From Ostreococcus lucimarinus (taxonomy: Eukaryota), in NCBI GenBank assembly GCA_000092065.1, contig CP000590.1: a stretch of 64,000 nt of DNA. One strand, written 5' to 3'. Positions 24,870 to 48,081 of this stretch are shown piece after piece. Position 1 is the first letter of the stretch, and each line of letters begins with the position of its first letter. The notes beneath the pieces are model-generated. The model was not told the DNA's origin. It saw only the letters and a program-made list of their open reading frames with translations, and did not search any database. The position numbers were made by a program, and so were the translations under genes.

Positions 24870-25190
24870 GTCGCGAAGATGGCGACGCTCGAGAACTCCC
24901 GTCGAGTTTACGAACCAACCCTCGCGCTCGCCTCGTCGAAGTCGCCGTGTGTCGAGGCACACCAGACGAGGCACATTTCGCACCGCCGCCGGCGGCTTTC
25001 CTAAACCCCAACGCGCGCGCCCGGCGACGCCGACGGCGCTCGTTTGGTCGACACGCGCGAACTAAAAAACATCGACACACGCGAATGAATCGATACACGT
25101 TACGATCGTGGCAAATAATGATTATATTAGCACAAAAAGCAATCAATGCGTTGAAGCGAAGCATGGATATTGCCGCGCGACGACGGCAGT

Positions 25191-26875
25191 CTACGTCGCG
25201 TCGATGACTGGAACTGGACGCCACGGCACCGCAGAACCGTCCATGAGACCAACGCCGCGCGCGGAAAGTTCGTCGCGTAAGCGGTCGGACTCCGCAAAGT
25301 CTTTCGCATCGCGCGCCTTATTGCGTTCTTCTATTTTAGCTAAGAGATCGTCCTCAGTCAAGCCCGCGCGGTGCAACGCGCGCGCGCGAAGCTCCGCAAG
25401 AATGACGTTTTCTTCATCCTTGGGCATGCCAACCGCCTCCATTAAACCCTCGACAGTGCTCAACAACGACTGAAGCGCCCCAACACGACCGACTGCTTTC
25501 TTTCCAGCCTTGGTGGTCATGAAATCATTCATTGATTTGAGCGGCGCGGAGAGCGTCGCGATCACTCCGGGCGTGTTCATGTCGTCATTCAAAGCCTCGG
25601 ACACTTGCTTCTCAGCCTCACTCGCGAGCTTCAGCGCATCCGCAACGAGCGGTACCGGCTTTTTAGCTGGCTCTTCCGCCGCGGCATCGCGAAGAATTGC
25701 TCGTACATCGTGAACTGTTTGGTACAAATAGTAAACGCGATCGGAAGCCTCCTCCAGCGCGCGCTGTGTGTAGTTGATGGGCGCTCTGTAGTGCGCGCCA
25801 AGAAGCATGAAACGTAGCACGAACGGATGGTACTTGTCCAACACTTCGCGAATAGTGAAAAAGTTGCCGAGCGACTTGGACATCTTCTCAGAATCCACCT
25901 TGACGAAGCCGTTATGCACCCAGTAACGCACAAACGGATTCTCATCCGCGTGCGCTCCACAACCGCACGCCGCCGAAGACTGCGCCAGCTCGTTTTCGTG
26001 ATGCGGAAAAACTAAGTCTTGGCCTCCACCGTGGATATCAATCGTCGGTCCTAGCATTTTTTCAATCATTGCGCTGCACTCAATGTGCCAGCCCGGTCGT
26101 CCCTCGCCCCACGGACTCGTCCACGTTGGCTCACCCGGTTTTGCAGTCTTCCATAGCGCAAAGTCGGCTGGATTTTTCTTGCGCCCGTCCACGGCCACGC
26201 GCTCACCCGCGCGATTGTCTTCTTGATTTCTCCCTGACAACGCCCCGTATGCGGGCAAGGTGTCGACGGAAAAGTAGACGTCCCCTTCCGTCTCGTACGC
26301 GTTACCTTTGGCGATTAAACGCTCGATGAACGCGATGATGTCATCCACACACTCCGTCGCACGAGGCTCGAGCGTCGGACGCAGGCATCCGAGCGCCGCC
26401 ATGTCTTCGTGGAATGCCTCTATGAATTTATCCGTGAGCGCCTCGCACGTCTCCCCGCTCTCATTTGAGCGCTTGATAATCTTGTCGTCAATGTCGGTGA
26501 AATTTCGGCAATACGTCACGTCGTACCCTAAACGCATCAATTGTCGATATAATACGTCGAACGCGACGTACACGCGCGCGTGACCGATGTGTGAATAGTC
26601 GTACACCGTGACGCCGCACACGTACATTTGCACCTTTTTCCCCGCCGGGTCTCGCGGCGTAAAAATCTCCTTCTTTCGCGTCATCGTGTTCGTGAGCCAA
26701 AGCCTGGAAAGATCTCGTCCTTCGTTTGACGTCTCCACGTCCTCGCTCGCGGTGACGCTCTTCCCATACACCCCTCTCGTCGGCGCGTCGACGCGCACGA
26801 GCGGCGTCCCGTGTCTTCGTCCGGCGTTCGTCCGCGATGGCGTGGACGCGGTGACGACGAGCCCTCTTCTCGCGT

Positions 26876-26911
<36 letters not shown>

Positions 26912-27017
26912 GTATTCTCGCGCGTCCCTGCATCGTTCTGTTCGTGTTCGTCGTCGCCCGTCGCATCCCCATGCGCGTCACCAACGACGACCCTTGCTGC
27001 GAGGCGAGTCGCATCAT
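25191..27017 (-). CDS. CARS: Cysteinyl-tRNA synthetase (class I), organelle-targeted, about 608 aa
   Basis: HIGH-region motif CGVTVYDYSHIGHARVYVAFDVL and KMSKS motif KMSKSLGNFFTIREVL. The start is set at the MM at 27012-27017. Upstream of that, the ORF is the antisense shadow of the NFU gene. The N-terminal extension contains a poly-Thr run encoded by (GTC/GAC)n at 26876-26911. Confidence 0.85.
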
Positions 27018-27225
27018 CCTCGACGACGCCCCGCGACGACGCGCTCGGGACGACGACCGCGAACGGACGACCGCGGTGAGGAAATCGAGCGATCGCGTCG
27101 ACGGCGCGTCGGCGTCTGCCGCGGGGCACACGGCGGGTCCTTCACGAGGCGACGGAGACCCGGCCCCCCGCCCCGCCTCGCCCCGCACCGCACAGCGCGA
27201 CGACTGATTGCGGTGACCCACGACG

Positions 27226-27867
27226 ATGTCGCGCGCGTTCTCGTCCACGAAAGCGTCGACGAGCGTGACGAATGCGTCCCGACAACATCGACGAAGACGC
27301 GCGTCGTCGTCGTCGTCGTCGCGTCGTTCGACGCGCGCGCGCGCGTCGTCGCGACGCGCCGTCGAAGCGCGCGCCGCGTCCGAGGGCTCGCTCACGGATA
27401 CTTTGGAACTCACCGCGGATAACATCGAGAGCGTGCTGGACGAAGTGCGACCGTACTTGATCGCGGACGGTGGTGACGTCGAACTCGTCGAAATCGACGG
27501 ACTGTCGGTGAAGCTGAAGCTCAAGGGCGCGTGCGGATCGTGCCCGTCGAGCACGGTGACCATGCGCATGGGGATAGAGAAGCGCTTGTTGGAAAAGATT
27601 CCAGACATCATGGAAGTCATACAGGTGGAGGAAAAGCTCGAGGGATTGGACCTGAACGAAGAAAACGTGGAGGCAACGTTAGACGAGATCCGACCGTACC
27701 TCGCCGGCACGGGCGGGGGAGAACTCGAACTCATCGACATCGAAGAACCCATCGTCAAGGTGCGCCTGACGGGACCGGCGGCCAAGGTGATGACGGTGCG
27801 CGTCGCGGTGACGCAAAAATTACGCGAAAAAATCCCATCCATCGCCGCCGTCCAATTGACGGAATGA
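27226..27867 (+). CDS. NFU: NifU-like Fe-S cluster scaffold protein, plastid CnfU/NFU type with two tandem NifU C-terminal domains, 213 aa
   Basis: ATG at 27226 verified. The transit peptide is S/R-rich. Domain 1 carries the CxxC motif ([28 protein letters not shown]). Domain 2 is degenerate and lacks CxxC, as in plant NFU1-3. Confidence 0.8.
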
Positions 27868-28102
27868 GCGCCGATTTAATCACCTCGGAATTGATTTCAT
27901 ATTAACTTGTAACCAGCGACGACGCTCGAGACGCGCCACCAACCGCCTCACAACTCGGACGACCAAGCGCGCGAGCAGACGACGAACCGTTCGAGCTATC
28001 GAGCGGTGCGATCTGTTCGTCAACACGACCTCGCGTCTCGCCGTTCACGACGCACGAACAACGAGCGCGGAACCATAGAGGGAAGAGTCGTCTTAGGAGG
28101 CG

Positions 28103-29311
28103 ATGAATCAGCCTGATCGAGGCGGTTTAACGCGTCGAAATGTCGGTCATGGCGGTCAAGACGACGAGTATTCGACACCGAGTAAGCGTATGACGAATAT
28201 ACTCAAAGCGTTGGACGCGAATCCGAAATTAAAGGAGGATTACGTGAGCGAATCGACGTCTGGGGTGATCACTACTTTGGTGTGCGCGGCGTTGTGTTTG
28301 ATTTTGTTCTTTGGCGAATTCTTCTCGTACAAGACGACGAAAATCGTGAGCGAATTGAGAGTAAATCCGCTCGGTGTTCATCAAACGGTGCCCAACGCGG
28401 AAAGACTGAAGATTGACGTCGATATTACCTTTCACAGTCTGGCTTGCAATCTCATCACGCTCGACACCTCGGATAAAGCCGGAGAAGAGCACTACGACGT
28501 GCACGATGGTCACATCGAAAAGAGGAGGATAGACAAGCATGGGAAAGTGATTGATGCTGCGTTTACTTCAGAAAAGCCAAACAAACACAAGGAGATTGAG
28601 CAAGCGCTGCAAAAGATGAACGAGACCGACTCCGCACACGCCGCCGACTCTCATGCCATGGAGCACGTGCAGCCGTTCGGTGGTATGTTTGGTCTACAAA
28701 GTTTATTGCAAGAAGTGTTTCCAGAGGGCGTGGAGCATGCGTTTAGAAACGAGAATCAAGAAGGGTGCGAGGTGAAGGGTTACCTTGAAGTGAATCGGGT
28801 ACCGGGACGGTTTTCCATTTCGCCGGGACGTTCGCTCATGATGGGGATGCAAATGGTCAAGCTAAACGTGCAGACGGCATTAAATTTAACGCATACGATT
28901 CACAGGCTGTCATTTGGGGAAAGCTTTCCCGGTTTGGTGAGTCCACTCGACGGAACGCACCGCTCACTTCCGCCGAACGCGGTGCAGCAATATTTTCTTA
29001 ACGTTGTGTCGACGACATTCGAGCCTTTGGGAGAGAACAAAATCATCAGCACTCATCAGTATAGCGTTACTGAAACTTTCACAAGCTCACAGCGATCAAT
29101 TATGGGGACGTCCAACGGCCGTGATCCGGGCGTCATCTTTACTTACGAAATATCGCCGATTCGCGTCGACTTCAAAGAGACTCGCACGTCGTTTGGTGCA
29201 TTCGTCCTGGGTATCTGTTCCGTCATCGGAGGCGTCGTCACTATGGCGGGTATCACGCAAAATGCCGTTGAGTATATTATTTCTAATCGCAAGACCCTCT
29301 TCGCGTCATAG
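28103..29311 (+). CDS. ERGIC3: ER-Golgi intermediate compartment protein ERGIC/ERV41-46 family (ERGIC_N plus COPII-coated ERV domain), 402 aa
   Basis: ATG at 28103. It has N- and C-terminal TM segments flanking a luminal domain: LKALDANPKLKEDYVSESTSGVITTLVCAALCLILFFGEFFSY ... GAFVLGICSVIGGVVTMAG. The gene lies in the lower-GC island. Confidence 0.75.
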   Translation: MNQPDRGGLTRRNVGHGGQDDEYSTPSKRMTNILKALDANPKLKEDYVSESTSGVITTLVCAALCLILFFGEFFSYKTTKIVSELRVNPLGVHQTVPNAERLKIDVDITFHSLACNLITLDTSDKAGEEHYDVHDGHIEKRRIDKHGKVIDAAFTSEKPNKHKEIEQALQKMNETDSAHAADSHAMEHVQPFGGMFGLQSLLQEVFPEGVEHAFRNENQEGCEVKGYLEVNRVPGRFSISPGRSLMMGMQMVKLNVQTALNLTHTIHRLSFGESFPGLVSPLDGTHRSLPPNAVQQYFLNVVSTTFEPLGENKIISTHQYSVTETFTSSQRSIMGTSNGRDPGVIFTYEISPIRVDFKETRTSFGAFVLGICSVIGGVVTMAGITQNAVEYIISNRKTLFAS

Positions 29312-29469
29312 ACATTAGCAGTTGTAGCGTCCTAGTGTACATCGAGTCACATCAAACCATGAGTTACGTCCTGTAGTCCTCGCGCTCTTCCTCACACTTC
29401 GCCGCAACTACAGATGACCAAAATAAGTATTAGCAATCTTGAATACCTCGTGCGCGCCTTCCTCGGGTG

Positions 29470-32400
29470 ATGACGCGCGTGGTGGCCGTCGGTGCAATTC
29501 TCTTCTCCGTGACCCTGCTCTGTTCTCTCGTCGCGAGCGTGGGTGTATGTTCCAACGACCTCACAGGTGCATCCCTTCTCAATGCTTTGAGCGATATGAG
29601 GATAGGTACAGATACCGACATGAGTTTTGTATTCTTTGCCGCACTCGTAGACGTCGGTCTGCAGTCGTATTGCGGGAATACGCTGCGAAATTTGGGTAGT
29701 GCGTCTGCTCAGACTCTCATTCTCGTTCCCGACAGTGCCTTTGAGAGGGCGTCGATAGTCATGGATAAAGGATTAGAAGAAATAACAAGTGACAGAGTCC
29801 TCGTCTGTGAAATTTTGGAGTCATCCATCGTGCAAGCAGCATTGAACAGCCGCGATGTTCGAGACGGAGACGAGCTCTCTACCGCGTCAATGCGTATGCC
29901 CAAGCTTCGCGTAGACGTCGTTCAAGACATAAACGTTCGCAAATTACGAATTTTCACTGATGTTGGAACAACTATCGCTGATTTATTCGCGACAGATGTC
30001 GCTCTGTGTCCTCGCTTGAGTGCCGTGTTCGCCTCAGAGCTCTTGATACCATTAGTCGAGTCAAACGCTTTTCCCAGTGTGTGGAAGATATCAAAATCAT
30101 TACCAGAGCTTAGCACGAGTGCTGAAGCATTTCGAATCACTGATTCGTTGCGCGTGATATTCGAATCGAGCGAATACGATGGCTACGATGGGACTGTGGG
30201 GAGGTCAAGTTTGCAGACATGTGTCTTTGATGGAACAAATCATGGATTTCGCGCTTATTTCTTACCATCGAATCGCGCCTGGAGACGGTTCTTTCGCAAA
30301 ACTGAGCTCACAAAATCTGCTCTTTTCTCAGATTACTCCCTTCTTCTCAGTATCCTGCTTTACACTGAAGGACAGCTAACGTCGACACAGCAAAGTATTG
30401 ACTTGAAGTCGTACTTGTCGACGAGCCTCGTCCCAGGACAATTGCTACGCCCCGTCGGGGCGTCTACAATTTTGAGTGCCTTTCCAGGACAAGTGGAGAT
30501 TCCAGCTTTGCGAGTGGACGTGGACATATCTAAGGTCAGTTCGCGATACGTTAGAATTTCTGGTGGGAGCACGAGCAGTCGCTTTGATAACACCGCCGTC
30601 GTCGTCGCCGCAGATATTGTTTCATGCACTGGCATCGTCCATATCATCGATGATGTGCTAGTTCCACCAATGTTGACAGCATTTCGTCAGCTCTCATTGC
30701 GTAGCGAGCTGTCTATGTTTACAGATCTGTTACGAGCGCCCGCAATGCATGAGTTGATGCTCGAACTCGATACACCATCCGAAACGAATATATTTGCTGA
30801 CAGCGTCGTTTTCGCGCCAACAAATGTAGCGATTCGACTAACTTTGAATTACATCGGTTGGACGTTCGAAGATTTGTTCCAGAGGGACGCACTGTTGCGA
30901 CAATTTGTCACGTACCACGTCATAAGTACTCGAAGCGCCGAAGGAGCCCCTGAAAGACTCAAATTTCGTCTAGGACTCGGTCCCGAGGAACAGCAGTTTG
31001 CCACGCGCTTGGCATATCCAATCTTAGCGAAGAGCTACGCTAACACGTTCCAAGGCACGCCCATCGCTAAGACAGTGAAAGTACTCTCAACTCGCCGCGG
31101 CGTGAAAAAGTTCTTCACACCCCGCCATGTGCTTCGAGGACGTTTAAACTCTGCACGGTTCATCAAAAGTGACATTCCATCGACGAATGGCGGTATCGCT
31201 ATTATCGATGCGGCGCTCATTCCACCGACGGCGGAATTCGGAGTGACTCTTTACGATAGAATTCTTCGCACACCGACGCTGCGTGTTTTTCGTGAACTTA
31301 CAAGCGTTCTCGGCCTCCAGCGCGAGTTTGACACGCAAGGTTTTGGAAACGGTGACTGTACCGTATTTGCACCGACGGATTCCGCATGGGTTACCTTACT
31401 TGCCGATCTCATGACGACGCAGGAGGAAATCGCAAACCGCGCCACAGCGATGCTGTACGATATTATCATGCTCATGCTCGCCCCTAGAACGGAAGAATTT
31501 CAAGAGATTGAACGCGAACTTTATGACCCATGGCTGTCAAAGGACGCACTGGATGGTGACGAGCTCGTGACCGCGCTCTCGGGGTATACGACGGTGAGAG
31601 TACTTTGATTTAATTATTTCTCGTTTAATTATTTTTCCAAATTTTCCAGCATGCAAACATTATCCATTTCGGCGCATTTGAGAGATGCGTTGGTCAGAGC
31701 TGCACTCCTACGAGCACACTAGTAGCCGTACCTCGAGTTGTGGGTCCAGTGCTGGCGCAATCGTCGTTTACAAGGTAAATATATCGTATTCATCAGTGCA
31801 TCAATTTAATTAATTTCATCAGTACGACCTCATGGAAAAACTATGCAAGAATTATTTCGCCGGTACGCCGATTTTGTGCACGAGATCGCGCTATGAGCTC
31901 TGACAACTCAAGTAGGACATGGCAAGCGGACAACACGCCCTGAACGGCGAGCTTTACGTGGTAAAATAATTAGTTTTGGTCTGAGAAATATTTAATTAAT
32001 TTTCAATGTTCGTCCTGATTTCACAGATAGATACGGTGCTTCTACCGCGCCTTGGCGAGCGTTGCCGCACGGCAGACTTTACATACAACGCGGGCAGCGC
32101 ATTTGAGCTGCGAGATGGGCGCGTTCGACGATATGAGCGTTGTTTAGCACCGCCGTGTTCCTACACTTTACCAGGTGGGAATTATTTTCTCGAATTAATT
32201 TTTAAAACATTTCATTTGCTCCTACACGCGCGCTTTTTGCTGACCTTTGATTTTTCTACCGATCAAACAGGACTTTACGGTCGCGCTGGTGTGCGTATTT
32301 CTGTAGAAGCTTTCGTGACGTACGACGCGTTACCAATTTGCGACTCGTGGTGCGTATTAATTTCTTGGTGGTGGTGTGTTCCGTGCACCGGAGTAGTAGC

Positions 32401-33169
32401 TCAAACTATAGCCACGATCGGTGGATGTGCGCCCTATCAATCTCAGTGCGGTGGTTCCCTCGTTGTTTTCGTCACGGACGCGGGTGAAGTGCGATTTGGC
32501 GTGCAAACGTTCATGGACTCCTACAATAATTTACCGCTCAGTTTGGGCGGTGGTTTGCGCATCGTCGACGTCTCGGTGCCAGGCAAGGGTTTTTTTGCGC
32601 GCGACGGGATCGCGTTCAAAGTGCTCTGCACGTACGATGGCGTTTCGAATACGACAAAGATTTACATCAATGATAAGTTAAGGGGTATAGCAGATCCGTT
32701 CGTCATGGGTCAGTTTTTGTTTCGCCCGTTCCACAACGTATCCGGGAACTTGCACGAGAAGATCACGATTGGCAACAGCATGCACTCGGCTGCTTCCGCC
32801 ACGAACACTTTAACTGACTTTCAAGGTATGCACGAGACGAGTAATGGAACTCCAGATACACGAGATGGCACATTACCGGCAATTGGTCAATTTGCGACCT
32901 ATGACGCCTCGCCGCTCTTCGACGGCTCCCCAACAACGCAATATTTCTTGCCGTGGAGGGGCACGATTCACGAGGTGTACGTGTATTTTGACAACGGACT
33001 ATATCAAGGGATTAGATATCCTTCAACTTGCGTGCACTTAGAGCCCGTCGAACCCGAAGCCGATGATTTTAGTGATTTTGTGACTCGTCGCCGCCGTCTC
33101 CACGAGACGCCGGTTTCCAGAGTGCGCGTTGGCCCTCGGCGGCGTAGTGACATTCGGGCTACTAGCTAG
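29470..33169 (+). CDS. Secreted multi-FAS1 (fasciclin) domain protein with a C-terminal Cys/Trp-rich domain. Proposed 5-exon model, about 1100 aa: join(29470..31593, 31685..31774, 31916..31960, 32027..32174, 32271..33169).
   Basis: The first ATG at 29470 follows the GTG at 29467. There is a signal peptide (VAVGAILFSVTLLCSLVASVG). Three FAS1 domains are complete, with H1/H2 boxes (VVFAPTNVAI, TVFAPTDSAW, GIVHIIDDVLVPP, NGGIAIIDAALIPP). The fourth FAS1 domain is cut by the apparent stop at 31606. Its missing H2 box (ALNGELYVIDTVLLP) opens the next track ORF, 32006..33169. Phase-0 GT..AG introns are proposed at 31594-31684, 31775-31915, 31961-32026 and 32175-32270, all AT-rich and 66-141 nt. They restore ..SGYTT|MRWSELHSYEHTSSRTSSCGSSAGAIVVYK|DMASGQHALNGELYV|IDTVLLP.., which aligns with the pattern of domains 2 and 3 (..GGSTSSRFDNTAVVVAADIVSCTGIVHIID). 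The alternative is two separate genes, 29470..31608 and 31919..33169. Confidence 0.5.
31594..32270 (+). other. Cluster of four short AT-rich spliceosomal introns: 31594..31684, 31775..31915, 31961..32026 and 32175..32270
   Basis: Direct reading: GTGAGA...AG, GTAAAT...AG, GTAAAA...CACAG and GTGGGA...AACAG boundaries. The intron bodies are much more AT-rich than the flanking exons. All are phase 0 in the proposed model, except that the last begins after codon position 1 of GGT (phase 1) and is 96 nt long. In-frame stops inside them (31606 TGA, 31913 TAG) are removed by splicing. Confidence 0.5.
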
Positions 33170-33187
33170 AGGTCGAAACTACACAAA

Positions 33188-36100
33188 CTATAAGACTAAT
33201 GATTTGAGAATGTTTGCCGCGAAAGTCGCTTCCCTACTTTCCTTCCTGTCACCATCAAAGCAACACTCAGGCACGATGGCAGAAACAGGGGGAAGACTGA
33301 CTCGCTGCGATCCAGCCTCGGGCGCGACACTCCAGACTGGAGTGGGAATGTCAACCAAAAGACAGCCACGAGCCGCGGTTGCCATCGAGTATAGCCAAAC
33401 TTCATCACCGTTGACTTTTGCGAAAGCACGCGTTGCGTTCGCTGCGACGAGTCGCAAAGCCTCGTCGTCCTCCATGGCAAGCTTGGCCACGACGGGCACT
33501 GCCGCCCCGAGCAAATCGTGTAGCGCTTGCTTTGATTTTTCGCACGATGCGATGGATTCTAAAGTATCGCATATTTTGATACGGATGCGTCTCGTAAGCT
33601 CTGATGAAATCTCCGACTCAGCGATGAAGCTTGCATCGACGGTATCTGCCAGCGTAAGAAGTTCGAGCGATCGGTGTCGTTTGTCAACGTGACAAACACC
33701 TTGTTGCAAAACGCGCGACAGTATAGGCCATAGATCCGAGTTCATGCGTTTGGCGATGAAATCGCCACCACTTGTCGAAGCCATGGTTCGAAGTAACGAC
33801 AAACTCGCTTCGTACGCTTCAGCTTGAATCGAAATTTGAAATCGGTCGCTGAGCGATGATACCGCATGAGGCCAGATGTTATGGATGTGTGGCAGTACAC
33901 GGGCATCTTTGTAGAGGGAAGCCACATCAAAAGGCGTGGAATTCCTGCCTCCGTAAGCTTTGAGTACTTTTAAGACGTATTTATCATGCGTCAATGCAGA
34001 TTCTGCTGCTGAAAGGCTCTCAAGAGCGAACGAGCAAGCCGTTGCAGATAAACTTCGAACGCCGGCGTAAGGCGACTCCAGCAGCGCGCTGACCGATCTC
34101 AGCAAGTCTATCGCACAACCGACCATGGCCTGAAGGCGACGAACGCGCTCCAAGGACTGAGCCCGGGTGGTTTCAATGTCCTGCGAAAGCACCGAACGCA
34201 TTTCTTCGACAAAGACCTCCGTCAGCTCGTTCTCGTCTTCGCTGTCTGGCTCCTCCGGGTGATACTTTTGTATGCTAGCCACAACACCTCGCGAGTGTGT
34301 CTCTATCTCTCGCACCTCGAGCAACACTGCTGAACAATATTCATTCATTACGAGCAGAAAATCTTCGGAGTGCTCCGCATTTTTTTCTCTATTGACGATC
34401 AAAAATGTGCGCAACGCCAATCGAATCGGCTCTGCGAGAAGCTTCACCATGCTCTTTGCCGCATCAGTCCTCCTCAGAATAGCCGCAAAGAGTCGAGGAG
34501 CGCGTGAGTGCTTATCTAAATGCCGCATTTGTCGAGAAAGCATATCCACAACGTAGTCTGCGTTCGCAACGACAAGACTCGCTATTGGTGAATCATCGGT
34601 TGAATTGTATTCTCCGCTTTGAGCCAACTTGAGCAAAACAAGCGCTGCGGTGTCTCGCACCTCAAGCGATTCTTCACCGAGCTTATCGAGTAATGGACAA
34701 AGTACGTTTGTCAAAAATGCACTTGTTCGTATGTGATCTTTGCCGAGTCCTTCTCCGATGATCCCCATGCCTTCCATCAACACGCGTAGTAAAAGAGCGT
34801 TGTCCGGTTCCGCAGCGTCAAGATTCCACACCTCGCTGCATACGTACTCTTCGACGATCAAACTGGAGACGCGAACAAGATATTCTCTTTCGACTGCTGA
34901 TTCAGTGATGGCGCCAAAAAGCATTTCATTGAGCGCTATCAGGTGGGCTGCCGCGTTTCTTTGCCATGCACCCGCGGTGCCCAATGCGTCGAGCTCTGCA
35001 TCATTTCTCAATGTGCCGAGAAAGTATTGCGCCATTGGCACAAAATACGTTTCCAGTGAAGATTCGTTTGTGATTGATGCCGCTCGACCGAGTAATCTTA
35101 GCATTTTTGCAAAACTTTTGTACATGGATGCGTCGGGGAAGTACTGCAACCTAGGAGGCGCCCGTGGCAACCCTTGCGCCGTCGACACGCTGGCTTCGGT
35201 CAAATCAATTAAACTTATCATCTGCGCGCTGCCATCTCGTCGTTGAGAAGAAAATGTTTCGATGAGCAGACACTCCGCAATGGTAGAGCACAAATGTTCT
35301 CTCGAGCTCGGACGGGCGAATAGCGTTTCTTTCAAGCGCCGAGCGCCGGCGAATTCCAGAGCGATGAGCAAGCGCTGAAGATGCCCGACAGCCTTATCGG
35401 AAGAATCACGCAGCGTGTCTGCTATGTTGGACAAATCGTCTTTTATGATTGCCTCCAAGTCTGCTCGGACGACGTAGCCGAGGTTGTCAAGAGATCTCAA
35501 ATCTTCCAATATGGGCGTCGAGACTTGTGCCCAACTATCTCCCGCGAGCGTGAGTAAGCACTCCATCATTCTACGCCTCGTCTTCGCGCCCAGAACTTTT
35601 GCACAATGTTTTAAGACGCTACTCGCCATTTTTCCAGTCGCAAGTCTCACGGTCGCGCGCTGATGACTCGCTAAGGGTGGAATTGTCGCTAAGAGCGCCG
35701 CTTCAACGCGAGAGCTCGCGAGAGAGAGCCATTCTTTATCTCGAACCACCTTGAGATCTTTACCAGCGTTCGCAGGGGATACGGACGCGTTTTCGTCGTT
35801 CATATCCCTCGACATATTTTTTGCGTTCGATTCCAGCTGATCGTCTATCGATCGAGCGACGAGAGAACCCAGTGCGCTTTGCAACGCATTTGCACCTTCG
35901 CCCTCTGCGGAATCGCCGAGCTCTGATTCGTACAACGAGTCGTTCAGAACGCACGACAGAATGGACGCCATCGAACTCAGGGCAAACTCGACGCCATCTG
36001 CGCCAGTTCCTCCCGGCCCAGCGCCAACGTTTGGGCGAACACCACTCGCCGCGACTAACGCCTTGGTCAACCCAGACACCGTGCCCGGAAGGAAAAACGC

Positions 36101-36847
36101 GAGAGCATCGGCGTCGGCGACAAATCGAATCAAGCAATCGAGCGTGTTCAACGCACTCGAGCGCAGAAGCTTACTCCCTTGCGACCCCGCGCTTGTTTCT
36201 TCGTGCGAAATCGCAAGGAGCGTAGAAATCGTGAACCCGAGCATAGGTGCGATCTCGGAGGCGCCTCGAAATGCTGCTTGCACCTCTGTGGACGCCGCCG
36301 CGCAAAACGCGCGCGTCGCCTCCAAGACTTCCATGCATACCGTCTCGTACTCGCCTCGTCGCGGTAACGACAAGACACCGACAATCCCACTGAATATTCT
36401 CAATCCCATTTCTCGCGTACAGTCTTCCCCGCTTTTCGTCATCGCCTCTCCCGTCGTTCGCAGCGCGCTCTCGAGCAACCGCCGCCGGCGCGCCACATCC
36501 TTCGGCGCCGTCGTCGCTTCAACATCACTCGGCGCGCTCGACTCCTCCATCATTCGCGACACGTTCGCTCGAAGTATCTCCACGCACGGTATCGCGCACA
36601 GTTCCAGCGCGCGTCGCTCGCTCGGTGCTTCCGCGTGCGTCTTCCGTAGGCGCTCCACGGCGTCTCGCGCCTCGTCCGCGAACCGCGCCTCCGCGCGTCC
36701 TCGCGCCGCGCTCACCATCACCGCTCGACTGGCGTCGATGAGCGCATCGGTCGCGCCCGTCGTCGCCGTCGTCGTCGTCGTCGCGTCCCGTTCGTTCGTC
36801 GCTTCCGTCGACATCTCCGCGAAACGAGTTTCGCGCGGCGAATCCAT
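33188..36847 (-). CDS. Large HEAT/ARM-repeat protein, about 1220 aa, of unknown specific family (possibly TTI1-like)
   Basis: The continuous ORF is helical-repeat-like throughout. The start is set at the ATG at 36845-36847 (MDSPRETRFAEMSTEATNERD..). The 5' extension of the track ORF is the antisense of the KEKK repeat plus the (GTTCG)n microsatellite, not coding. The gene spans a GC transition from about 70% at its 5' end to about 45-50% at its 3' end. Confidence 0.55.
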   Translation of the reverse strand: MDSPRETRFAEMSTEATNERDATTTTTATTGATDALIDASRAVMVSAARGRAEARFADEARDAVERLRKTHAEAPSERRALELCAIPCVEILRANVSRMMEESSAPSDVEATTAPKDVARRRRLLESALRTTGEAMTKSGEDCTREMGLRIFSGIVGVLSLPRRGEYETVCMEVLEATRAFCAAASTEVQAAFRGASEIAPMLGFTISTLLAISHEETSAGSQGSKLLRSSALNTLDCLIRFVADADALAFFLPGTVSGLTKALVAASGVRPNVGAGPGGTGADGVEFALSSMASILSCVLNDSLYESELGDSAEGEGANALQSALGSLVARSIDDQLESNAKNMSRDMNDENASVSPANAGKDLKVVRDKEWLSLASSRVEAALLATIPPLASHQRATVRLATGKMASSVLKHCAKVLGAKTRRRMMECLLTLAGDSWAQVSTPILEDLRSLDNLGYVVRADLEAIIKDDLSNIADTLRDSSDKAVGHLQRLLIALEFAGARRLKETLFARPSSREHLCSTIAECLLIETFSSQRRDGSAQMISLIDLTEASVSTAQGLPRAPPRLQYFPDASMYKSFAKMLRLLGRAASITNESSLETYFVPMAQYFLGTLRNDAELDALGTAGAWQRNAAAHLIALNEMLFGAITESAVEREYLVRVSSLIVEEYVCSEVWNLDAAEPDNALLLRVLMEGMGIIGEGLGKDHIRTSAFLTNVLCPLLDKLGEESLEVRDTAALVLLKLAQSGEYNSTDDSPIASLVVANADYVVDMLSRQMRHLDKHSRAPRLFAAILRRTDAAKSMVKLLAEPIRLALRTFLIVNREKNAEHSEDFLLVMNEYCSAVLLEVREIETHSRGVVASIQKYHPEEPDSEDENELTEVFVEEMRSVLSQDIETTRAQSLERVRRLQAMVGCAIDLLRSVSALLESPYAGVRSLSATACSFALESLSAAESALTHDKYVLKVLKAYGGRNSTPFDVASLYKDARVLPHIHNIWPHAVSSLSDRFQISIQAEAYEASLSLLRTMASTSGGDFIAKRMNSDLWPILSRVLQQGVCHVDKRHRSLELLTLADTVDASFIAESEISSELTRRIRIKICDTLESIASCEKSKQALHDLLGAAVPVVAKLAMEDDEALRLVAANATRAFAKVNGDEVWLYSMATAARGCLLVDIPTPVWSVAPEAGSQRVSLPPVSAIVPECCFDGDRKESREATFAANILKSLVL

Positions 36848-37027
36848 CGAAATCTCTCGAATCAATCCAATCGACCCAATCGCTCGCGCGTTCGCGCGTT
36901 CGCGATCGGTGTCCGGCGCGCGCGCGATCGTCGACTCGAGTTCGTCGGTGCGTTCGCGCGCGTCATCGTCCGTCGCGTCCGTCGCGTTGTGCGACGCGCG
37001 TCGTCCGCAGTCGTCCTCGCGCGCGCA

Positions 37028-37097
37028 GTCAGTCAGTCGGTTCGGTCGTTCGGTCGTTCGGTCGTTCGTTCGGTCGTTCGTTCGTTCGTTCGTTCGG
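37028..37097. repeat. (GTTCG)n/(GTTC)n microsatellite in the divergent promoter between the HEAT-repeat gene and the DEAD-box helicase gene
   Basis: Direct reading: cagtcagtcggttcggtcgttcggtcgttcggtcgttcgttcggtcgttcgttcgttcgttcgttcgg. Its reverse complement, (GAAC)n, recurs at 63172-63228 upstream of HSP60. Confidence 0.85.
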
Positions 37098-37150
37098 CGT
37101 CCCCGGTCCCGCCGCCGCCGCCGCGGACGACGCACAACTCGACGACGACG

Positions 37151-38743
37151 ATGGGGAAAGAGGGCAAGAGGGAGAAGAAGAAGGAGAAGAAGGAGAAGAA
37201 GGAGAAGAAGGAGAAGAAGGGCAAGCGCGAGCGCGACGCGAACCGCGACGGCGGCGCGCGGGAGTCGTCGAAACCCACCACGGCGACGAAAAAGGCAAAG
37301 ACGACGCGCGATGACGAGGGACAGACGTTCGGGATGGCGGCGGTGGGCGATCGATCGATCGCACAGTCCGGTGATACGTTTCAACGCGTGTTTTACGACG
37401 CCCCGGCGTCGTTGAAGTCGATGTCGGCGAGCGAGGTGCAGGCGGCGCGAGACGCGTTGGCGGTGACGCAGGTGGACGGTTTGTCGACGGATTTAGCGCC
37501 GGTGTCTTCATTCGCAGATGCGGGGTTTTCGAAGGAGCTGCTGCGAGTGACGGCACAGTTTAAGACGCCGTCACCGATTCAAGCGCAATCTTGGCCGATC
37601 ATCATGAGCGGGCACGACATGGTGGGGATCGCGGCGACGGGTTCCGGGAAGACGCTCGCGTTTGGGATGCCGGCGCTGACGCAGATTCACTCGCAACCAC
37701 CCTGCAAGCCCGGTCAGCCGATCTGTTTAGTGCTCGCACCGACGCGAGAATTGGCGCAACAAACGGCCAAGGTGTTTGACGACGCCGGCGAGGCTTCTGG
37801 GGTGAGGTGCGTATGCGTGTACGGGGGCGCTCCCAAGTACGAACAAAAGGCACAGATGAAGGCGGGCGGCGGAGCCGCGGTCATCGTCGCGACACCGGGT
37901 CGTCTTCGAGATTTCATGGAAGAGGGCGTGATTAAACTTGATAGAGTGACGATGTTAGTGCTCGATGAGGCCGATCGCATGCTGGATTTGGGTTTTGAGC
38001 CTGAAATTCGCGCCATCGCCGGCGCCACGCGCGCCGATCGACAAACCGTGATGTTTTCTGCGACGTGGCCTCAGAGTGTGCAAAGCCTCGCTTCGGAGTT
38101 TATGTGCAATCCTATCAAGGTTCGCATCGGTGCCGAAGGTTTGAAAGCTTCTCAAAGCATAACTCAAATCGTCGAAGTCGTCGAGCCGCAGGACAAGGAT
38201 AGACATTTGGCGCGAGTCATGAAGCAATATTTGGGCAAAGGCAAAGAGGTGCCTCGAACCCTCATTTTCGGTTTGTACAAGAAAGAGTGCGCAAATTTGC
38301 ACCAAAGACTTAGCCGTGAATGGCCAGCAGTGTGTATTCACGGCGACATGTCTCAGCATGATCGTGAAAAGTCGGTCGATGCGTTCAAGAAAGGCACGTC
38401 TCGAATCTTGATTGCCACCGACGTCGCCGCCCGAGGTCTCGACATTAAAGAGGTGGAGTATGTCATCAATTATACGTTTCCTCTCACCACGGAGGACTAT
38501 GTTCACAGAATCGGTCGTACCGGTCGCGCTGGTGCAACGGGCTTGGCTCACACATTTTTTACATTGCACGACAAGGCGAGAGCGGGCGAACTCGTCAACG
38601 TGTTACGAAAAGCTGGCGCAGAAGTTCCAGAAGAACTCACTAAGTTCGGCACGCACGTGAAGAAGAAAGAAAGTAAGTTGTATGGCGCGCATTTCAAGGA
38701 CGTGGACATGTCGGTGAAGGCTACGAAGATCACGTTCGATTAA
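37151..38743 (+). CDS. DEAD-box ATP-dependent RNA helicase (Dbp3/DDX5-like) with an N-terminal K/E-rich tail, 530 aa
   Basis: ATG at 37151 (MGKEGKREKKKEKKEKK.., encoded by the (GAGAAGAAG)n repeat at 37171-37215). Helicase motifs are present: Q-motif FKTPSPIQAQSWP, AATGSGKTLAF, PTRELAQQ, DEAD (LVLDEADRMLD), SAT (MFSATWP) and HRIGRTGRAG. Confidence 0.88.
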   Translation: MGKEGKREKKKEKKEKKEKKEKKGKRERDANRDGGARESSKPTTATKKAKTTRDDEGQTFGMAAVGDRSIAQSGDTFQRVFYDAPASLKSMSASEVQAARDALAVTQVDGLSTDLAPVSSFADAGFSKELLRVTAQFKTPSPIQAQSWPIIMSGHDMVGIAATGSGKTLAFGMPALTQIHSQPPCKPGQPICLVLAPTRELAQQTAKVFDDAGEASGVRCVCVYGGAPKYEQKAQMKAGGGAAVIVATPGRLRDFMEEGVIKLDRVTMLVLDEADRMLDLGFEPEIRAIAGATRADRQTVMFSATWPQSVQSLASEFMCNPIKVRIGAEGLKASQSITQIVEVVEPQDKDRHLARVMKQYLGKGKEVPRTLIFGLYKKECANLHQRLSREWPAVCIHGDMSQHDREKSVDAFKKGTSRILIATDVAARGLDIKEVEYVINYTFPLTTEDYVHRIGRTGRAGATGLAHTFFTLHDKARAGELVNVLRKAGAEVPEELTKFGTHVKKKESKLYGAHFKDVDMSVKATKITFD

Positions 38744-38777
38744 ATCTCTAGTGTGAACGCTACGTAATACGGGTATG

Positions 38778-48040: not shown

Positions 48041-48081
<41 letters not shown>

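What the first reader, a model, noticed from the sequence alone, without database searches (positions are those of the whole stretch)
28100..35750. A lower-GC compositional island of about 7.5 kb whose edge falls inside a gene
Sampled 60-nt windows give about 45-53% GC between 28.1 and 35.7 kb, against about 65-70% elsewhere (examples: 28261-28320 about 47%, 34501-34560 about 45%, 36001-36060 about 70%). The upstream edge is sharp, at the NFU/ERGIC intergenic region. The downstream transition occurs inside the single continuous 1220-codon HEAT-repeat ORF at about 35.7-36.0 kb, so the island is not a cleanly inserted cassette. The island holds ERGIC, the FAS1 gene and the only short AT-rich introns in the window. 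It resembles in miniature the low-GC intron-rich 'outlier' regions described in Mamiellophyceae chromosomes, but those are far larger.
Basis: seen in the sequence. Interest (0 to 1): 0.55.

Follow-up and report, generated by a model that had tools for sequence, protein, structure and literature searches.

The report
Gene-body GC trough, not an island
The ~50% GC stretch is real, but it is the normal gene-body composition of this Ostreococcus lucimarinus chromosome, found wherever DNA lies more than about 1 kb from a head-to-head promoter pair, so it is the longest gap between promoter-centred CpG/GC peaks and not an inserted or 'outlier' island.

Summary
The window is Ostreococcus lucimarinus CCE9901: its NifU protein is identical to XP_001419878.1, on a 613,585-bp record. 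GC at 28.1-35.75 kb is 50.1%, as reported. The claimed 65-70% background is wrong. The rest of the window averages 58.2%, and 42% of outside bins are at or below 55%. Five other stretches have the same composition (50.9-53.3% GC, same CpG and TpG ratios). The real features are 1-2 kb GC peaks (65-76%), mostly at head-to-head promoters. They decay to a ~51% plateau within about 1.2 kb. GC3 falls from 0.77 to 0.57 along genes. The 'edge inside TTI1' is this ordinary gradient, and the DEAD-box gene across the same promoter mirrors it. The trough is the longest in the window because its two flanking bidirectional promoters are 9.9 kb apart, and the ERGIC and FAS1 starts between them have no peak. 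Gene order and GC3 profile are conserved in six other Mamiellales lineages despite near-saturated synonymous sites. The peaks' GC excess is almost entirely CpG. The most likely cause is promoter-focused, CpG-favouring biased gene conversion; this is inferred, not shown. Side result: 'FAS1' and the 'unknown' ORF are one gene with five short introns, four of them AT-rich and conserved.

The parts
26700..27450 (.). GC/CpG peak (0.64-0.73) centred on the head-to-head CysRS(-)/NifU(+) promoter. It forms the upstream 'edge' of the finding.
   Evidence: 150-bp profile. The divergent spacer 27021-27225 is 0.76 GC. It contains a (TCG)n microsatellite at 26876-26912.
27226..27867 (+). NifU/NFU gene, 213 aa. 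It lies wholly inside the promoter-proximal GC zone (GC3 0.76-0.78).
   Evidence: Pfam NifU in metagenome gene calls. Exact match to XP_001419878.1 of O. lucimarinus CCE9901. GC3 values.
28001..36000 (.). The low-GC run itself (0.503). It is a plateau between two promoter peaks and the longest of six such runs in the window.
28103..29311 (+). ERGIC/ERV-family gene, 402 aa, intronless ORF. Tandem orientation. Its start has no GC peak (0.53 within +-250 bp; GC3 0.50-0.66).
   Evidence: Pfam ERGIC_N + COPIIcoated_ERV. Same 90% cluster as XP_001419879.1. GC values.
29470..33169 (+). One fasciclin-domain gene of 1126 aa in six exons: 29470-31593, 31650-31774, 31823-31862, 31916-31960, 32027-32174, 32271-33169. 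Its start has no GC peak (0.51) and GC3 is flat at ~0.50.
   Evidence: The spliced frame is open end to end and rebuilds the FAS1 end motif NGELYV|IDTVLLP across an exon junction. The C-terminal module follows Fasciclin domains in four longer homologues. The exons are conserved in six lineages. No transcript evidence is available.
31594..31649 (+). Intron 1, 56 nt, 25% GC, GTGAGA..CAG, contains TTTAATTATTT.
   Evidence: An AT-rich segment sits at the same place in all seven lineages.
31775..31822 (+). Intron 2, 48 nt, 25% GC, GTAAAT..CAG, contains TTTAATTAATTT.
31863..31915 (+). Intron 3, 53 nt, 51% GC, GTACGC..TAG, with a CTGAC branch-point-like motif. It is inferred from the reading frame only.
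   Evidence: Without it the frame closes at 31941-31943.
31961..32026 (+). Intron 4, 66 nt, 26% GC, GTAAAA..CAG, contains TTTAATTAATTTT.
32175..32270 (+). Intron 5, 96 nt, 35% GC, GTGGGA..CAG, contains GAATTAATTTTT and CTGAC. It is in frame and stop-free, so mechanical ORF lists read through it.
   Evidence: The frame breaks exactly here in L010 and L013.
33188..36847 (-). TTI1 (TELO2-interacting protein 1) gene, 1219 aa. GC3 runs 0.78, 0.78, 0.72, 0.66, 0.64, 0.62, 0.58, 0.54 and then ~0.50 in 50-codon bins from the 5' end.
   Evidence: Pfam TPR_TTI1_N, TTI1, TPR_TTI1_C. GC3 values. The same gradient is seen in L007, L008, L010, L011 and L012, and is weaker in L013.
35700..36847 (-). The 'edge inside a gene': the 5' ~1.15 kb of TTI1, where GC decays from ~0.70 to ~0.52.
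   Evidence: It is mirrored in the DEAD-box gene on the other side of the promoter.
36400..37600 (.). GC/CpG peak (0.63-0.73) centred on the head-to-head TTI1(-)/DEAD-box(+) promoter. The spacer 36848-37150 is 0.68 GC and carries (GTTCG/GTTCGGTC)n.
37151..38743 (+). DEAD-box helicase gene. GC3 is 0.85 in the first 100 codons and 0.57 after codon 300, a mirror image of the TTI1 gradient.

Best explanation
Shown. In this O. lucimarinus chromosome segment, composition is set by distance from promoters, mainly head-to-head ones.
- GC is ~0.68 at a divergent promoter, ~0.60 at 400 bp and ~0.56 at 1 kb. Beyond ~1.2 kb it sits on a plateau of ~0.51.
- The decay affects third codon positions, first and second positions, and non-coding spacers alike.
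- The finding is the plateau between the CysRS|NifU promoter (27.1 kb) and the TTI1|DEAD promoter (37.0 kb).
- It is the longest trough because these two promoters are 9.9 kb apart. It is also long because the two co-oriented genes between them, ERGIC and a 3.7-kb fasciclin gene, are the only gene starts of ~30 in the window without a GC-rich zone.
- The transition 'inside a gene' is the ordinary 5'-to-3' gradient of TTI1.
- The landscape is old and actively maintained. Seven Mamiellales lineages keep the same gene order and the same GC3 profile, although their four-fold sites are close to saturation.
- The peaks' GC excess is almost entirely extra CpG dinucleotides. Synonymous sites are chosen so as to create CpG, about twice as strongly near promoters as in gene bodies.

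Inferred.
- Mutation in Ostreococcus is strongly GC-to-AT biased, with an equilibrium GC of ~37%.
- Something therefore pushes GC, and CpG in particular, upward everywhere and hardest near promoters.
- The most likely agent is GC-biased gene conversion with short tracts initiated at open promoter chromatin. Its CpG specificity could come from T:G mismatch repair in a heavily CG-methylated genome.
- On this reading the trough is DNA that conversion tracts rarely reach.
- My confidence that the stretch is an ordinary trough is ~0.9. My confidence that gBGC is the main driver is ~0.5.
For: Identity: the NifU protein is an exact match to XP_001419878.1, and ERGIC falls in the same 90% cluster as XP_001419879.1.

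Composition:
- Searches show alternating peaks and ~0.50 stretches.
- One search finds six low runs: the finding at 0.503, the others at 0.509-0.533.
- One search shows the same dinucleotide ratios in all troughs.
- One search shows that only 16% of outside bins reach 0.65.

Gradient:
- Searches give the per-gene GC3 decay.
- aggregates 14 genes: GC3 falls from 0.77 to 0.57, with lambda = 156 codons.
- One search gives the distance profile, with a plateau of 0.51 from 1.2 kb and symmetry around the TTI1|DEAD promoter.
- fits GC = 0.515 + 0.19*exp(-d/610 bp), where d is the distance to the nearest divergent promoter. R2 is 0.51 over 0-45 kb. The finding's residual is -0.041, within the -0.011 to -0.042 range of the other troughs.
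- One search also gives spacer GC: divergent 0.62-0.76, tandem 0.49-0.58, convergent 0.26-0.44.

Peakless starts: one search gives start +-250 bp GC of at least 0.60 for all genes except ERGIC (0.53) and FAS1 (0.51).

Conservation:
- In one search the GC3 bin profiles correlate at r = 0.40-0.69 between distant lineages. Four-fold identity is only 0.33-0.45, against 0.25-0.28 expected from composition.

CpG:
- 41.8% of bases lie in CpG in the peaks, 18.5% in the troughs and 17.5% in the finding. GC outside CpG is 0.445, 0.397 and 0.395.
- C at a four-fold site is used 0.47 of the time before G and 0.13 otherwise in the peak zone. In the trough zone the figures are 0.38 and 0.21.

Literature:
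- Equilibrium GC is 36.8% against an observed 59% in O. tauri (PMC5455958).
- The site frequency spectrum is compatible with gBGC, chromosome GC rises with recombination rate, and LD is halved within 2 kb (PMC5498103).
- Loss of gBGC is the accepted explanation for the low GC of the non-recombining BOC1/mating-type region (PMC8557840, PMC13298755).
Against: - No direct evidence of recombination or of a W-to-S fixation bias at the peaks. The seven same-species contigs differ at only 0.01-0.12% of sites, and the next relatives are too diverged to polarise changes.
- Plain gBGC does not predict that nearly all the excess GC is CpG. A methylation- or chromatin-linked process is an equally natural reading.
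- 'Divergent promoters only' is not the whole rule. The tandem genes WD40, DnaJ, IF3 and amylase have GC-rich starts. Over the whole window 'all starts' fits better than 'divergent only' (R2 0.40 against 0.31). The divergent-versus-tandem difference is not significant (p = 0.11-0.21).
- Why ERGIC and FAS1 lack peaks is unexplained.
- Gene models at 45-64 kb are approximate.
Confidence: 0.8

Rival explanations
1. Methylation- or chromatin-based origin. The peaks are CpG-island-like promoter zones and the troughs are CG-methylated gene bodies. Either methylated bodies lose CpG by deamination, or CpG density is selected near transcription starts, for example for methylated-linker nucleosome positioning, which has been described for this very species (Huff & Zilberman 2014, from memory; the paper could not be read here). 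On this view recombination is not needed.
For: - The GC excess of the peaks is nearly all CpG.
- CpG o/e is 1.80 in the peaks and 1.45 in the troughs. TpG/CpA o/e goes the opposite way, 0.66 against 0.97.
- Synonymous sites favour CpG-creating bases.
- About one third of WIN-L007 differences are CpG transitions.
- The literature reports dense CpG methylation and phased nucleosomes downstream of transcription starts in O. lucimarinus (10.1101/2025.04.21.649811, PMC13298755).
Against: - CpG is still 1.3-1.5-fold over-represented in the troughs. Deamination decay is therefore not dominant anywhere, and a CpG-creating force is needed in any case.
- No clear nucleosome-scale periodicity of CpG appears in this 64 kb. 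There are only weak bumps near 166 and 330-360 bp.
- BOC1, which does not recombine, has both lower GC and lower methylation (PMC13298755). That fits recombination as the upstream cause.
Confidence: 0.3
2. The stretch is a genuine micro-domain of long-term low recombination, a miniature BOC1-like region or a piece anciently moved from it. This is essentially the first reader's idea. It would explain the two peakless promoters and the BOC1-type introns.
For: - It is the longest and marginally the lowest trough (0.503).
- ERGIC and FAS1 are the only starts without a GC zone, and this is conserved across lineages for FAS1.
- Four introns of 48-96 nt and 25-35% GC resemble the short AT-rich introns described for chromosome 2/BOC1 (PMC2367439, PMC3879977). 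The genome's mean intron is 187-188 bp.
Against: - Its composition cannot be told apart from five other troughs.
- There are no transposons or dispersed repeats.
- Gene order is perfectly conserved in seven lineages. BOC1 is rearranged between species.
- ERGIC and TTI1 have no such introns.
- LD in O. tauri decays within 2-10 kb (PMC5498103), so an 8-kb cold domain has little meaning as a non-recombining unit.
- The host record is 613,585 bp, probably not chromosome 2 (an inference from the gene counts in PMC2367439).
Confidence: 0.07
3. Selection on coding sequence. GC3-rich codons would be favoured at 5' ends or in highly expressed short genes. ERGIC, FAS1 and the distal part of TTI1 would be weakly expressed or constrained by hydrophobic, T-rich amino-acid content.
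For: - Short housekeeping genes are GC3-rich throughout: WD40 0.86, DnaJ 0.76, NifU 0.76.
- ERGIC and FAS1 encode membrane or secreted proteins. The segment has GC skew near 0 and a negative AT skew.
Against: - Non-coding divergent spacers are as GC-rich as the adjoining coding DNA, at 0.62-0.76. Codon selection cannot explain that.
- The gradient runs through conserved domains (DEAD and TTI1 TPR).
- Gene length and overall GC3 are not significantly correlated in this window (rho = -0.22, p = 0.24).
Confidence: 0.08
4. The stretch is foreign or recently inserted DNA, such as a horizontal transfer or a mobile-element remnant.
For: Only the lower GC.
Against: - The genes are core eukaryotic genes: ERGIC/ERV, a fasciclin protein and TTI1.
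- They sit in the same order in seven lineages whose TTI1 identity falls as low as 49%.
- There are no flanking repeats, integrase or tRNA.
- One boundary lies inside a gene.
Confidence: 0.01

Closest known systems
5'-to-3' GC (GC3) gradients and promoter-centred GC peaks, attributed to GC-biased gene conversion at stable promoter-associated recombination hotspots. Known from grasses and other plants, budding yeast, birds and dogs (general knowledge; gBGC across eukaryotes including Ostreococcus: PMC5635611).
   Same: - GC3 is highest at the start codon and decays over a few hundred codons to a plateau.
- Non-coding DNA near the promoter shares the enrichment.
- Peak positions are conserved between species.
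- The genome's GC is far above its mutational equilibrium.
   Different: - The excess here is almost wholly CpG, and the whole genome has CpG o/e above 1.3.
- The scale is very small (lambda ~0.5-0.6 kb) in a genome with ~2 kb per gene.
- Recombination at these sites has not been measured.
- I found no description of this fine-scale pattern for Mamiellales in the searched library.
Mamiellophyceae low-GC outlier regions: BOC1 (the candidate mating-type region) and SOC1.
   Same: - GC is lower than the chromosome average.
- It holds short AT-rich introns.
- On the gBGC reading the cause is the same: DNA that gene conversion does not reach.
   Different: - Outlier regions are hundreds of kb (393-1,681 kb).
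- They lie on chromosomes 2 and 18 in O. lucimarinus.
- They are enriched in transposons and/or introns in most genes.
- They are rearranged between species, less methylated and more highly expressed.
- This stretch is 8 kb, collinear in seven lineages and repeat-free. It is one of six equivalent troughs in 64 kb.
Vertebrate CpG islands at promoters.
   Same: The peaks are promoter-centred, 1-2 kb long, CpG-dense and often bidirectional.
   Different: - In vertebrates the background is CpG-depleted (o/e ~0.2) and islands merely escape decay.
- Here the background is itself CpG-enriched (o/e 1.3-1.5) and the peaks are more so (1.8).
- The methylation status of these peaks was not tested.
BOC1-type introns of Mamiellophyceae: under 75 nt, under 43% GC, no clear branch point (PMC3879977).
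   Same: - Four introns of the fasciclin gene are 48-96 nt long and 25-35% GC.
- They use GT..AG.
- They show a sharp GC drop at the splice sites.
- Their positions are conserved between lineages.
   Different: - They sit in one gene on a standard chromosome, whereas BOC1 introns are defined by location.
- One is 96 nt long.
- Two introns of the gene carry the canonical CTGAC branch motif: the 96-nt AT-rich intron 5 and the 51%-GC intron 3.
- All four share a TTAATTAA-like core. I did not find such a core in the descriptions of BOC1 introns that I read.

Membership tests
Mamiellophyceae low-GC outlier region (BOC1/SOC1) | Size of hundreds of kb (393-1,681 kb for the mating-type regions, PMC13298755). 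| tested here: not met
   The low run is 8.0 kb.
Mamiellophyceae low-GC outlier region (BOC1/SOC1) | GC ~9-17% below the rest of the chromosome, with a sharp boundary (PMC8557840). | tested here: not met
   GC is 0.501 inside and 0.582 outside, but equal to five other troughs at 0.509-0.533. The boundaries are ~1 kb decays, mirrored on the other side of each promoter.
Mamiellophyceae low-GC outlier region (BOC1/SOC1) | Lies on the big or small outlier chromosome (chr 2 or chr 18 in O. lucimarinus). | tested here: inconclusive
   The host record is 613,585 bp and carries XP_001419878.1/XP_001419879.1. The chromosome number is not given by the tools. Chromosome 2 has 489 predicted genes (PMC2367439), which is hard to fit in 613 kb at the gene density seen here. 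This is an inference.
Mamiellophyceae low-GC outlier region (BOC1/SOC1) | Most genes carry several short AT-rich introns, and transposons are enriched. | tested here: not met
   One gene of three has such introns. ERGIC and TTI1 are single ORFs. There are no dispersed repeats in 26-38 kb.
Mamiellophyceae low-GC outlier region (BOC1/SOC1) | Reduced synteny and species-specific content between species. | tested here: not met
   The order Cupin8-M3-DEAD-TTI1-FAS1-ERGIC-NifU-CysRS-Nop14 is identical in seven lineages.
Mamiellophyceae low-GC outlier region (BOC1/SOC1) | Suppressed recombination, lower CpG methylation and higher expression. | not testable with these tools
   Same-species contigs differ at only 0.01-0.12% of sites. 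No methylation or RNA data are available here.
Promoter-proximal GC gradient of the gBGC type | GC3 declines with distance from the start codon in most genes. | tested here: met
   The aggregate of 14 genes falls from 0.77 to 0.57, with lambda 156 codons. The exceptions are ERGIC and FAS1.
Promoter-proximal GC gradient of the gBGC type | Non-coding DNA in the zone shares the enrichment, so it is not codon selection. | tested here: met
   Divergent spacers are 0.62-0.76 GC and convergent spacers 0.26-0.44.
Promoter-proximal GC gradient of the gBGC type | The landscape is stable between species beyond shared ancestry of the sites. | tested here: met
   GC3 bin profiles correlate at r = 0.40-0.69 between distant lineages. 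Four-fold identity is 0.33-0.45 against 0.25-0.28 expected.
Promoter-proximal GC gradient of the gBGC type | Recombination or gene-conversion hotspots, and a W-to-S fixation bias, at the peaks. | not testable with these tools
   There is too little polymorphism. Unpolarised WIN-L007 divergence is higher in the peaks (6.3% against 4.4%), but this is confounded by lower constraint there.
Promoter-proximal GC gradient of the gBGC type | The enrichment acts on G+C in general, not on one dinucleotide. | tested here: not met
   GC outside CpG differs by only 0.445 against 0.397. The share of bases in CpG is 0.418 against 0.185. A CpG-specific variant, or a different process, is needed.
CpG island (promoter-associated, unmethylated) | High CpG o/e and high GC over at least 200 bp at a promoter. 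| tested here: met
   The peaks have CpG o/e 1.80 and GC 0.66-0.68 at gene starts. The usual thresholds do not discriminate here, because the troughs also have o/e 1.3-1.5.
CpG island (promoter-associated, unmethylated) | Unmethylated, against a methylated and CpG-depleted background. | not testable with these tools
   There are no methylation data. The background is not CpG-depleted, which already differs from the vertebrate case.
BOC1-type introns | Short (under 75 nt) and AT-rich (under 43% GC) (PMC3879977). | tested here: met
   Three introns of 56, 48 and 66 nt are 25-26% GC. A fourth is 96 nt at 35% GC. A fifth is 53 nt at 51% GC and does not qualify.
BOC1-type introns | Located in the BOC1 low-GC region. 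| tested here: not met
   They lie in a gene flanked by ordinary collinear genes on a 613,585-bp record. They therefore resemble BOC1 introns but are not members by definition.
Horizontally acquired genomic island | Absent from relatives, with mobility genes, repeats or a tRNA at the borders. | tested here: not met
   The stretch is present and collinear in seven lineages. No integrase, border repeat or tRNA was found.

The most novel reading that the evidence does not exclude
The ERGIC-fasciclin segment may be a conserved micro cold-spot for gene conversion. It holds two consecutive promoters that have lacked the CpG/GC zone since before the Ostreococcus lineages split. It also holds a gene that keeps four BOC1-type AT-rich introns with a shared TTAATTAA core on a standard chromosome. 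That would mean the promoter peaks are fossil records of recombination initiation in an alga whose sex has never been observed. It would also mean that some promoters are permanently exempt, or that this gene came from the mating-type region long ago.
Probability: 0.1. Interest if true: 0.5.

Novelty: new member of a known kind. Interest (0 to 1): 0.22.

Why it matters
The finding as stated does not matter much. It is a normal trough and should not be filed as an outlier region or an island.

What lies behind it is of moderate interest to people who study base-composition evolution.
- In one of the most compact free-living eukaryote genomes, composition at the 1-kb scale is organised around promoters.
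- The pattern is conserved across lineages whose synonymous sites are nearly saturated.
- The excess is CpG-specific, in a genome whose mutation bias runs the other way.

If the peaks are conversion hotspots, their positions give a sequence-only map of where recombination starts in a group where meiosis has never been seen.

There is also a practical lesson. Sampled 60-nt windows in such a genome mislead, and ORF lists over-extend genes in the stop-poor GC peaks.

Tried and rejected
- Polymorphism test for W-to-S bias. Six same-species metagenome contigs plus the window are 99.88-99.99% identical over 21 kb, which is too few SNPs. The 95%-identical L007 gives ~750 differences, but these cannot be polarised because the next relatives are near saturation.
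- Head-to-head versus tandem promoters as the sole rule. The difference is not significant (Mann-Whitney p = 0.21 for GC3 and 0.11 for flank GC). The tandem genes WD40, DnaJ, IF3 and amylase have GC-rich starts.
- Nucleosome-scale periodicity of CpG. Only weak bumps appear near 166 and 330-360 bp, so the result is inconclusive.
- A four-intron fusion of FAS1 with the downstream ORF gave a closed frame. A fifth, GC-normal intron at 31863-31915 was needed. An exact look-up of the resulting 1126-aa protein found nothing, so the model rests on frame, motif and homologue architecture, not on an annotated protein or transcript.
- Taxon assignment from best named hits was misleading at first. The M3 peptidase's best named hit was an oomycete at 38%. 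A divergent phytoene synthase was ~40% identical to cryptophyte, euglenid and Micromonas sequences alike. Exact and cluster look-ups settled it.
- Rfam found nothing in the window.
- Huff & Zilberman 2014 could not be retrieved. What I say about it is from memory.
- Horizontal transfer and mobile-element explanations were rejected on synteny and the lack of repeats.

Full report
WHAT THE WINDOW IS

The window's NifU protein (27226-27864, + strand) is letter-for-letter XP_001419878.1/ABO98171.1, 'predicted protein [Ostreococcus lucimarinus CCE9901]', on a 613,585-bp record. The neighbouring ERGIC protein falls in the same 90% cluster as XP_001419879.1.

The segment is gene-dense and almost intron-free. 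The genes around the finding are listed below, from Pfam hits and metagenome gene calls:
- Mtr4-like helicase, 18547-21879 (+)
- Nop14, 21942-24983 (-)
- CysRS, 25191 to ~27020 (-)
- NifU, 27226-27867 (+)
- ERGIC/ERV, 28103-29311 (+)
- a fasciclin gene, 29470-33169 (+)
- TTI1, 33188-36847 (-)
- DEAD-box helicase, 37151-38743 (+)
- M3 peptidase, 38778-40886 (-)
- Cupin8/JmjC, 41229-42875 (+)

THE OBSERVATION

The stated background of 65-70% does not.
- The window mean is 0.572 and the mean outside the finding is 0.582.
- Only 16% of outside 400-bp bins reach 0.65, and 42% are at or below 0.55.
- With 400-bp bins below 0.565 there are six low runs:

| Run | Mean GC |
|---|---|
| 4801-11200 | 0.522 |
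| 18801-24400 | 0.509 |
| 28001-36000 (the finding) | 0.503 |
| 38001-40400 | 0.516 |
| 41601-44400 | 0.533 |
| 53201-56400 | 0.527 |

- Dinucleotide ratios are the same in all of them. CpG o/e is 1.40 in the finding and 1.32-1.46 in the others. TpG/CpA o/e is 1.03 against 0.92-1.03.

The finding is the longest and marginally the lowest trough, not a different kind of DNA.

WHAT THE REAL FEATURES ARE

The discrete features are the GC peaks.
- In the first 45 kb, where gene models are firm, all seven peaks sit on head-to-head gene pairs: Xpo1|RRP5, CwfJ|PSY, hydrolase|unk178, unk542|unk192, CysRS|NifU, TTI1|DEAD and M3|Cupin8.
- Mean GC against distance from those promoter midpoints is 0.68 at 0 bp, 0.60 at 400 bp and 0.56 at 1 kb. 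It is flat at ~0.51 from 1.2 kb onwards.
- A single curve, GC = 0.515 + 0.19*exp(-d/610 bp), explains 51% of the variance of 200-bp GC over 0-45 kb. The finding's mean residual (-0.041) lies within the range of the other troughs (-0.011 to -0.042).
- Trough length tracks the spacing of divergent promoters. The promoters flanking the finding are 9.9 kb apart, the widest spacing in the window.
- Along coding sequences, GC3 averaged over 14 genes falls from 0.77 to a baseline of 0.57, with a decay constant of 156 codons.
- The decay is not a codon effect. Divergent spacers are 0.62-0.76 GC, tandem spacers 0.49-0.58 and convergent spacers 0.26-0.44.
- The gradient runs through conserved domains, namely the DEAD domain and the TTI1 TPR domain.

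THE TWO EDGES

The 'edge inside a gene' is the TTI1 gradient. In 50-codon bins from the 5' end, GC3 is 0.78, 0.78, 0.72, 0.66, 0.64, 0.62, 0.58, 0.54 and then ~0.50. In 250-bp steps from the TTI1|DEAD promoter, GC runs 0.66, 0.68, 0.62, 0.60, 0.53 into TTI1. It runs 0.64, 0.65, 0.61, 0.58, 0.53 into the DEAD-box gene on the other side. The upstream 'sharp edge' is the same decay from the CysRS|NifU promoter: 0.72, 0.59, 0.59, 0.56, 0.48. NifU, at 213 aa, lies entirely within the GC zone.

WHAT IS PARTICULAR ABOUT THIS TROUGH

Of ~30 gene starts in the window, all have GC of at least 0.60 within +-250 bp, except ERGIC (0.53) and the fasciclin gene (0.51). So two consecutive co-oriented promoters contribute no peak.

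Tandem orientation alone does not explain this. The tandem genes WD40, DnaJ, IF3 and amylase have GC-rich starts. The divergent-versus-tandem contrast is not significant (p = 0.11-0.21). Over the whole window 'all starts' fits better than 'divergent only' (R2 0.40 against 0.31). I have no tested explanation for the two peakless starts.

CONSERVATION

TTI1 homologues were found only in metagenomes, at 99, 94, 60, 57, 54, 53, 51 and 49% identity, plus one distant hit at 27%. I fetched the loci around six of them.
- All six keep the order Cupin8-M3-DEAD-TTI1-FAS1-ERGIC-NifU-CysRS-Nop14.
- All keep the same GC landscape and the same GC3 profiles. TTI1 falls from 74-84% to ~50% (weaker in L013). 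FAS1 is flat at ~50% in every lineage, and NifU is mostly 70-85% (52-66% in L012).
- GC3 in 50-codon aligned bins correlates at r = 0.40-0.69 between distant lineages (p between 2e-3 and 1e-13). Four-fold-site identity is only 0.33-0.45, against 0.25-0.28 expected from composition.

The landscape is therefore maintained by a persistent position-specific force, not inherited passively.

NATURE OF THE PEAKS

The GC excess of the peaks is nearly all CpG.

| Region | Share of bases in CpG | GC outside CpG |
|---|---|---|
| Peaks | 41.8% | 0.445 |
| Troughs | 18.5% | 0.397 |
| The finding | 17.5% | 0.395 |

- CpG is over-represented everywhere (o/e 1.3-1.8).
- Synonymous sites are used so as to create CpG. 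At four-fold sites in the first 150 codons, C is used 0.47 of the time before G and 0.13 otherwise. Beyond codon 350 the figures are 0.38 and 0.21, and in ERGIC + FAS1 they are 0.42 and 0.21.
- G after a second-position C is used 0.73 against 0.30 otherwise in the peak zone, and 0.42 against 0.19 in the trough zone.
- The peaks also hold CG-rich microsatellites, (TCG)n at 26876-26912 and (GTTCG)n at 37032-37103.

MECHANISM

Established background:
- Mutation in Mamiellophyceae is GC-to-AT biased, with equilibrium GC of 36.8% against an observed 59% in O. tauri (PMC5455958).
- Polymorphism spectra fit gBGC, chromosome GC rises with recombination rate, and LD is halved within 2 kb (PMC5498103).
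- The low GC of the non-recombining BOC1/mating-type region is attributed to loss of gBGC (PMC8557840, PMC13298755).

Even the ~50% plateau is well above the mutational equilibrium.

My best reading is that short gene-conversion tracts initiated at open, mostly bidirectional promoter chromatin push GC up locally, and that the troughs are DNA they rarely reach. The CpG specificity could come from T:G mismatch repair in a densely CG-methylated genome. That last step is inference only.

The main rival is a methylation- or chromatin-based origin of CpG-dense promoter zones. It is favoured by the CpG specificity. It is weakened because CpG remains in excess in the troughs, and because I saw no clear nucleosome-scale CpG periodicity. 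The two rivals make opposite predictions for BOC1 promoters, which I could not examine.

Tests with the data at hand were uninformative. Same-species contigs are 99.88-99.99% identical. WIN-L007 divergence is higher in the peaks (6.3% against 4.4%), but this is confounded by weaker constraint there.

COMPARISON WITH OUTLIER REGIONS

BOC1/SOC1 regions are hundreds of kb long. They lie on chromosomes 2 and 18 and are 9-17% lower in GC. They are enriched in transposons and/or short introns, rearranged between species, less methylated and more highly expressed (PMC8557840, PMC13298755, 10.1101/2025.04.21.649811). The present stretch fails on size, contrast, repeats and synteny. It resembles them only in having low GC and one gene with short AT-rich introns.

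THE FASCICLIN GENE AND ITS INTRONS

The 'FAS1' ORF (29467-31608) and the 'unknown' ORF (32006-33169) are one gene. Removing five GT..AG introns gives an uninterrupted 1126-aa frame: 31594-31649, 31775-31822, 31863-31915, 31961-32026 and 32175-32270. The exon 4/5 junction rebuilds the fasciclin end motif NGELYV|IDTVLLP.
- The exons are conserved in the other lineages in the predicted frames, and frame breaks fall at intron 5 in L010 and L013.
- In four longer homologues the C-terminal module follows Fasciclin domains.
- Four of the introns are 48-96 nt long and 25-35% GC.
- Those four lie at the same positions in all seven lineages and share a TTAATTAA-like core.
- O. lucimarinus introns average 187-188 bp. 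Short 40-65 bp ones are described for chromosome 2 (PMC2367439, PMC3879977).
- There is no transcript evidence, and the exact protein is not in the collection.

Whether other canonical GC-normal introns exist elsewhere in the window was not tested. Fragmentary calls for IF3 and a CCT subunit near 53 and 63.5 kb suggest that they may.

VERDICT

The measurement is right and the contrast is wrong. The stretch is an ordinary, conserved gene-body trough in a promoter-centred CpG/GC landscape. Interest in the finding itself is low. The underlying landscape and the odd introns are modestly interesting leads.

Noticed in passing
window 29470-33169 (+); introns 31594-31649, 31775-31822, 31863-31915, 31961-32026, 32175-32270: The 'FAS1' ORF and the downstream 'unknown' ORF form one 1126-aa fasciclin gene with five short introns. 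Four are AT-rich (25-35% GC), share a TTAATTAA-like core and are conserved in position in seven lineages. They look like BOC1-type introns but lie on a standard chromosome. The motif supplies stop codons in two frames and also contains the TAATTA homeodomain core. Its role is unknown.
   Followed up: partly
whole window; peaks e.g. 26700-27450 and 36400-37600: CpG is 1.3-1.8-fold over-represented everywhere, and synonymous sites are chosen so as to create CpG. C at a four-fold site before G is 0.47 against 0.13 otherwise near gene starts. NCG codons are 0.73 against 0.30. Nearly all of the peaks' GC excess is CpG.
   Followed up: partly
window 56957-57036 (+): A tRNA-Ala(CGC) gene of 80 nt lies in the GC peak between the alpha-amylase 5' end and the bromodomain gene 3' end. 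It is the only RNA gene detected.
   Followed up: no
window 26876-26912, 37032-37103, 37147-37237: CG-rich or purine-rich microsatellites lie inside the two promoter peaks. (TCG)12 sits at 26876-26912, ~110-145 bp inside the 5' end of the approximate CysRS model (25191 to ~27020). (GTTCG/GTTCGGTC)n sits in the TTI1|DEAD spacer. (GAAGAAGGA)n encodes a Lys/Glu-rich N-terminus of the DEAD-box protein.
   Followed up: no
window 47600-53200 and 56400-64000: These blocks stay at 60-76% GC because they are packed with short genes: VKOR, WD40 (GC3 0.86), DnaJ (0.76), IF3, YchJ-like and ATP sulfurylase. Almost every base there is within ~1 kb of a gene start.
   Followed up: partly
window 35961-37415 (+), 36989-37150 (+), 25191-27842 (-) and similar: Stop-poor GC peaks generate long spurious or over-extended ORFs on both strands. 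Examples are a 484-aa ATG ORF antisense to the TTI1 5' end, and the CysRS ORF extended to 883 aa over the NifU promoter. Prokaryote-style gene callers on the metagenome contigs make the same errors.
   Followed up: partly
window 23257-39411 versus L007: Divergence from the 95%-identical sister lineage is higher in the GC peaks (9.1% at 27-28 kb and 6.3-6.9% at 36-38 kb) than in the troughs (about 4-5%). Roughly one third of all differences are CpG transitions. Relaxed constraint and a higher substitution rate cannot be separated here.
   Followed up: partly
window 12181-13431 (+): A phytoene-synthase-family gene is only ~40% identical to named algal and plant PSYs, including Micromonas. This may be the divergent second PSY class of prasinophytes (from memory).
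   Followed up: no
window 53643-56819 (-): An alpha-amylase carries N-terminal glucan-water-dikinase-type Ig-like (CBM45-like) domains, as in plant AMY3.
   Followed up: no
whole window, CpG autocorrelation: Weak bumps in CpG autocorrelation appear at ~166 bp and ~330-360 bp. They could reflect the nucleosome-linker CG clustering reported for this species, but they are too weak in 64 kb to call.
   Followed up: partly
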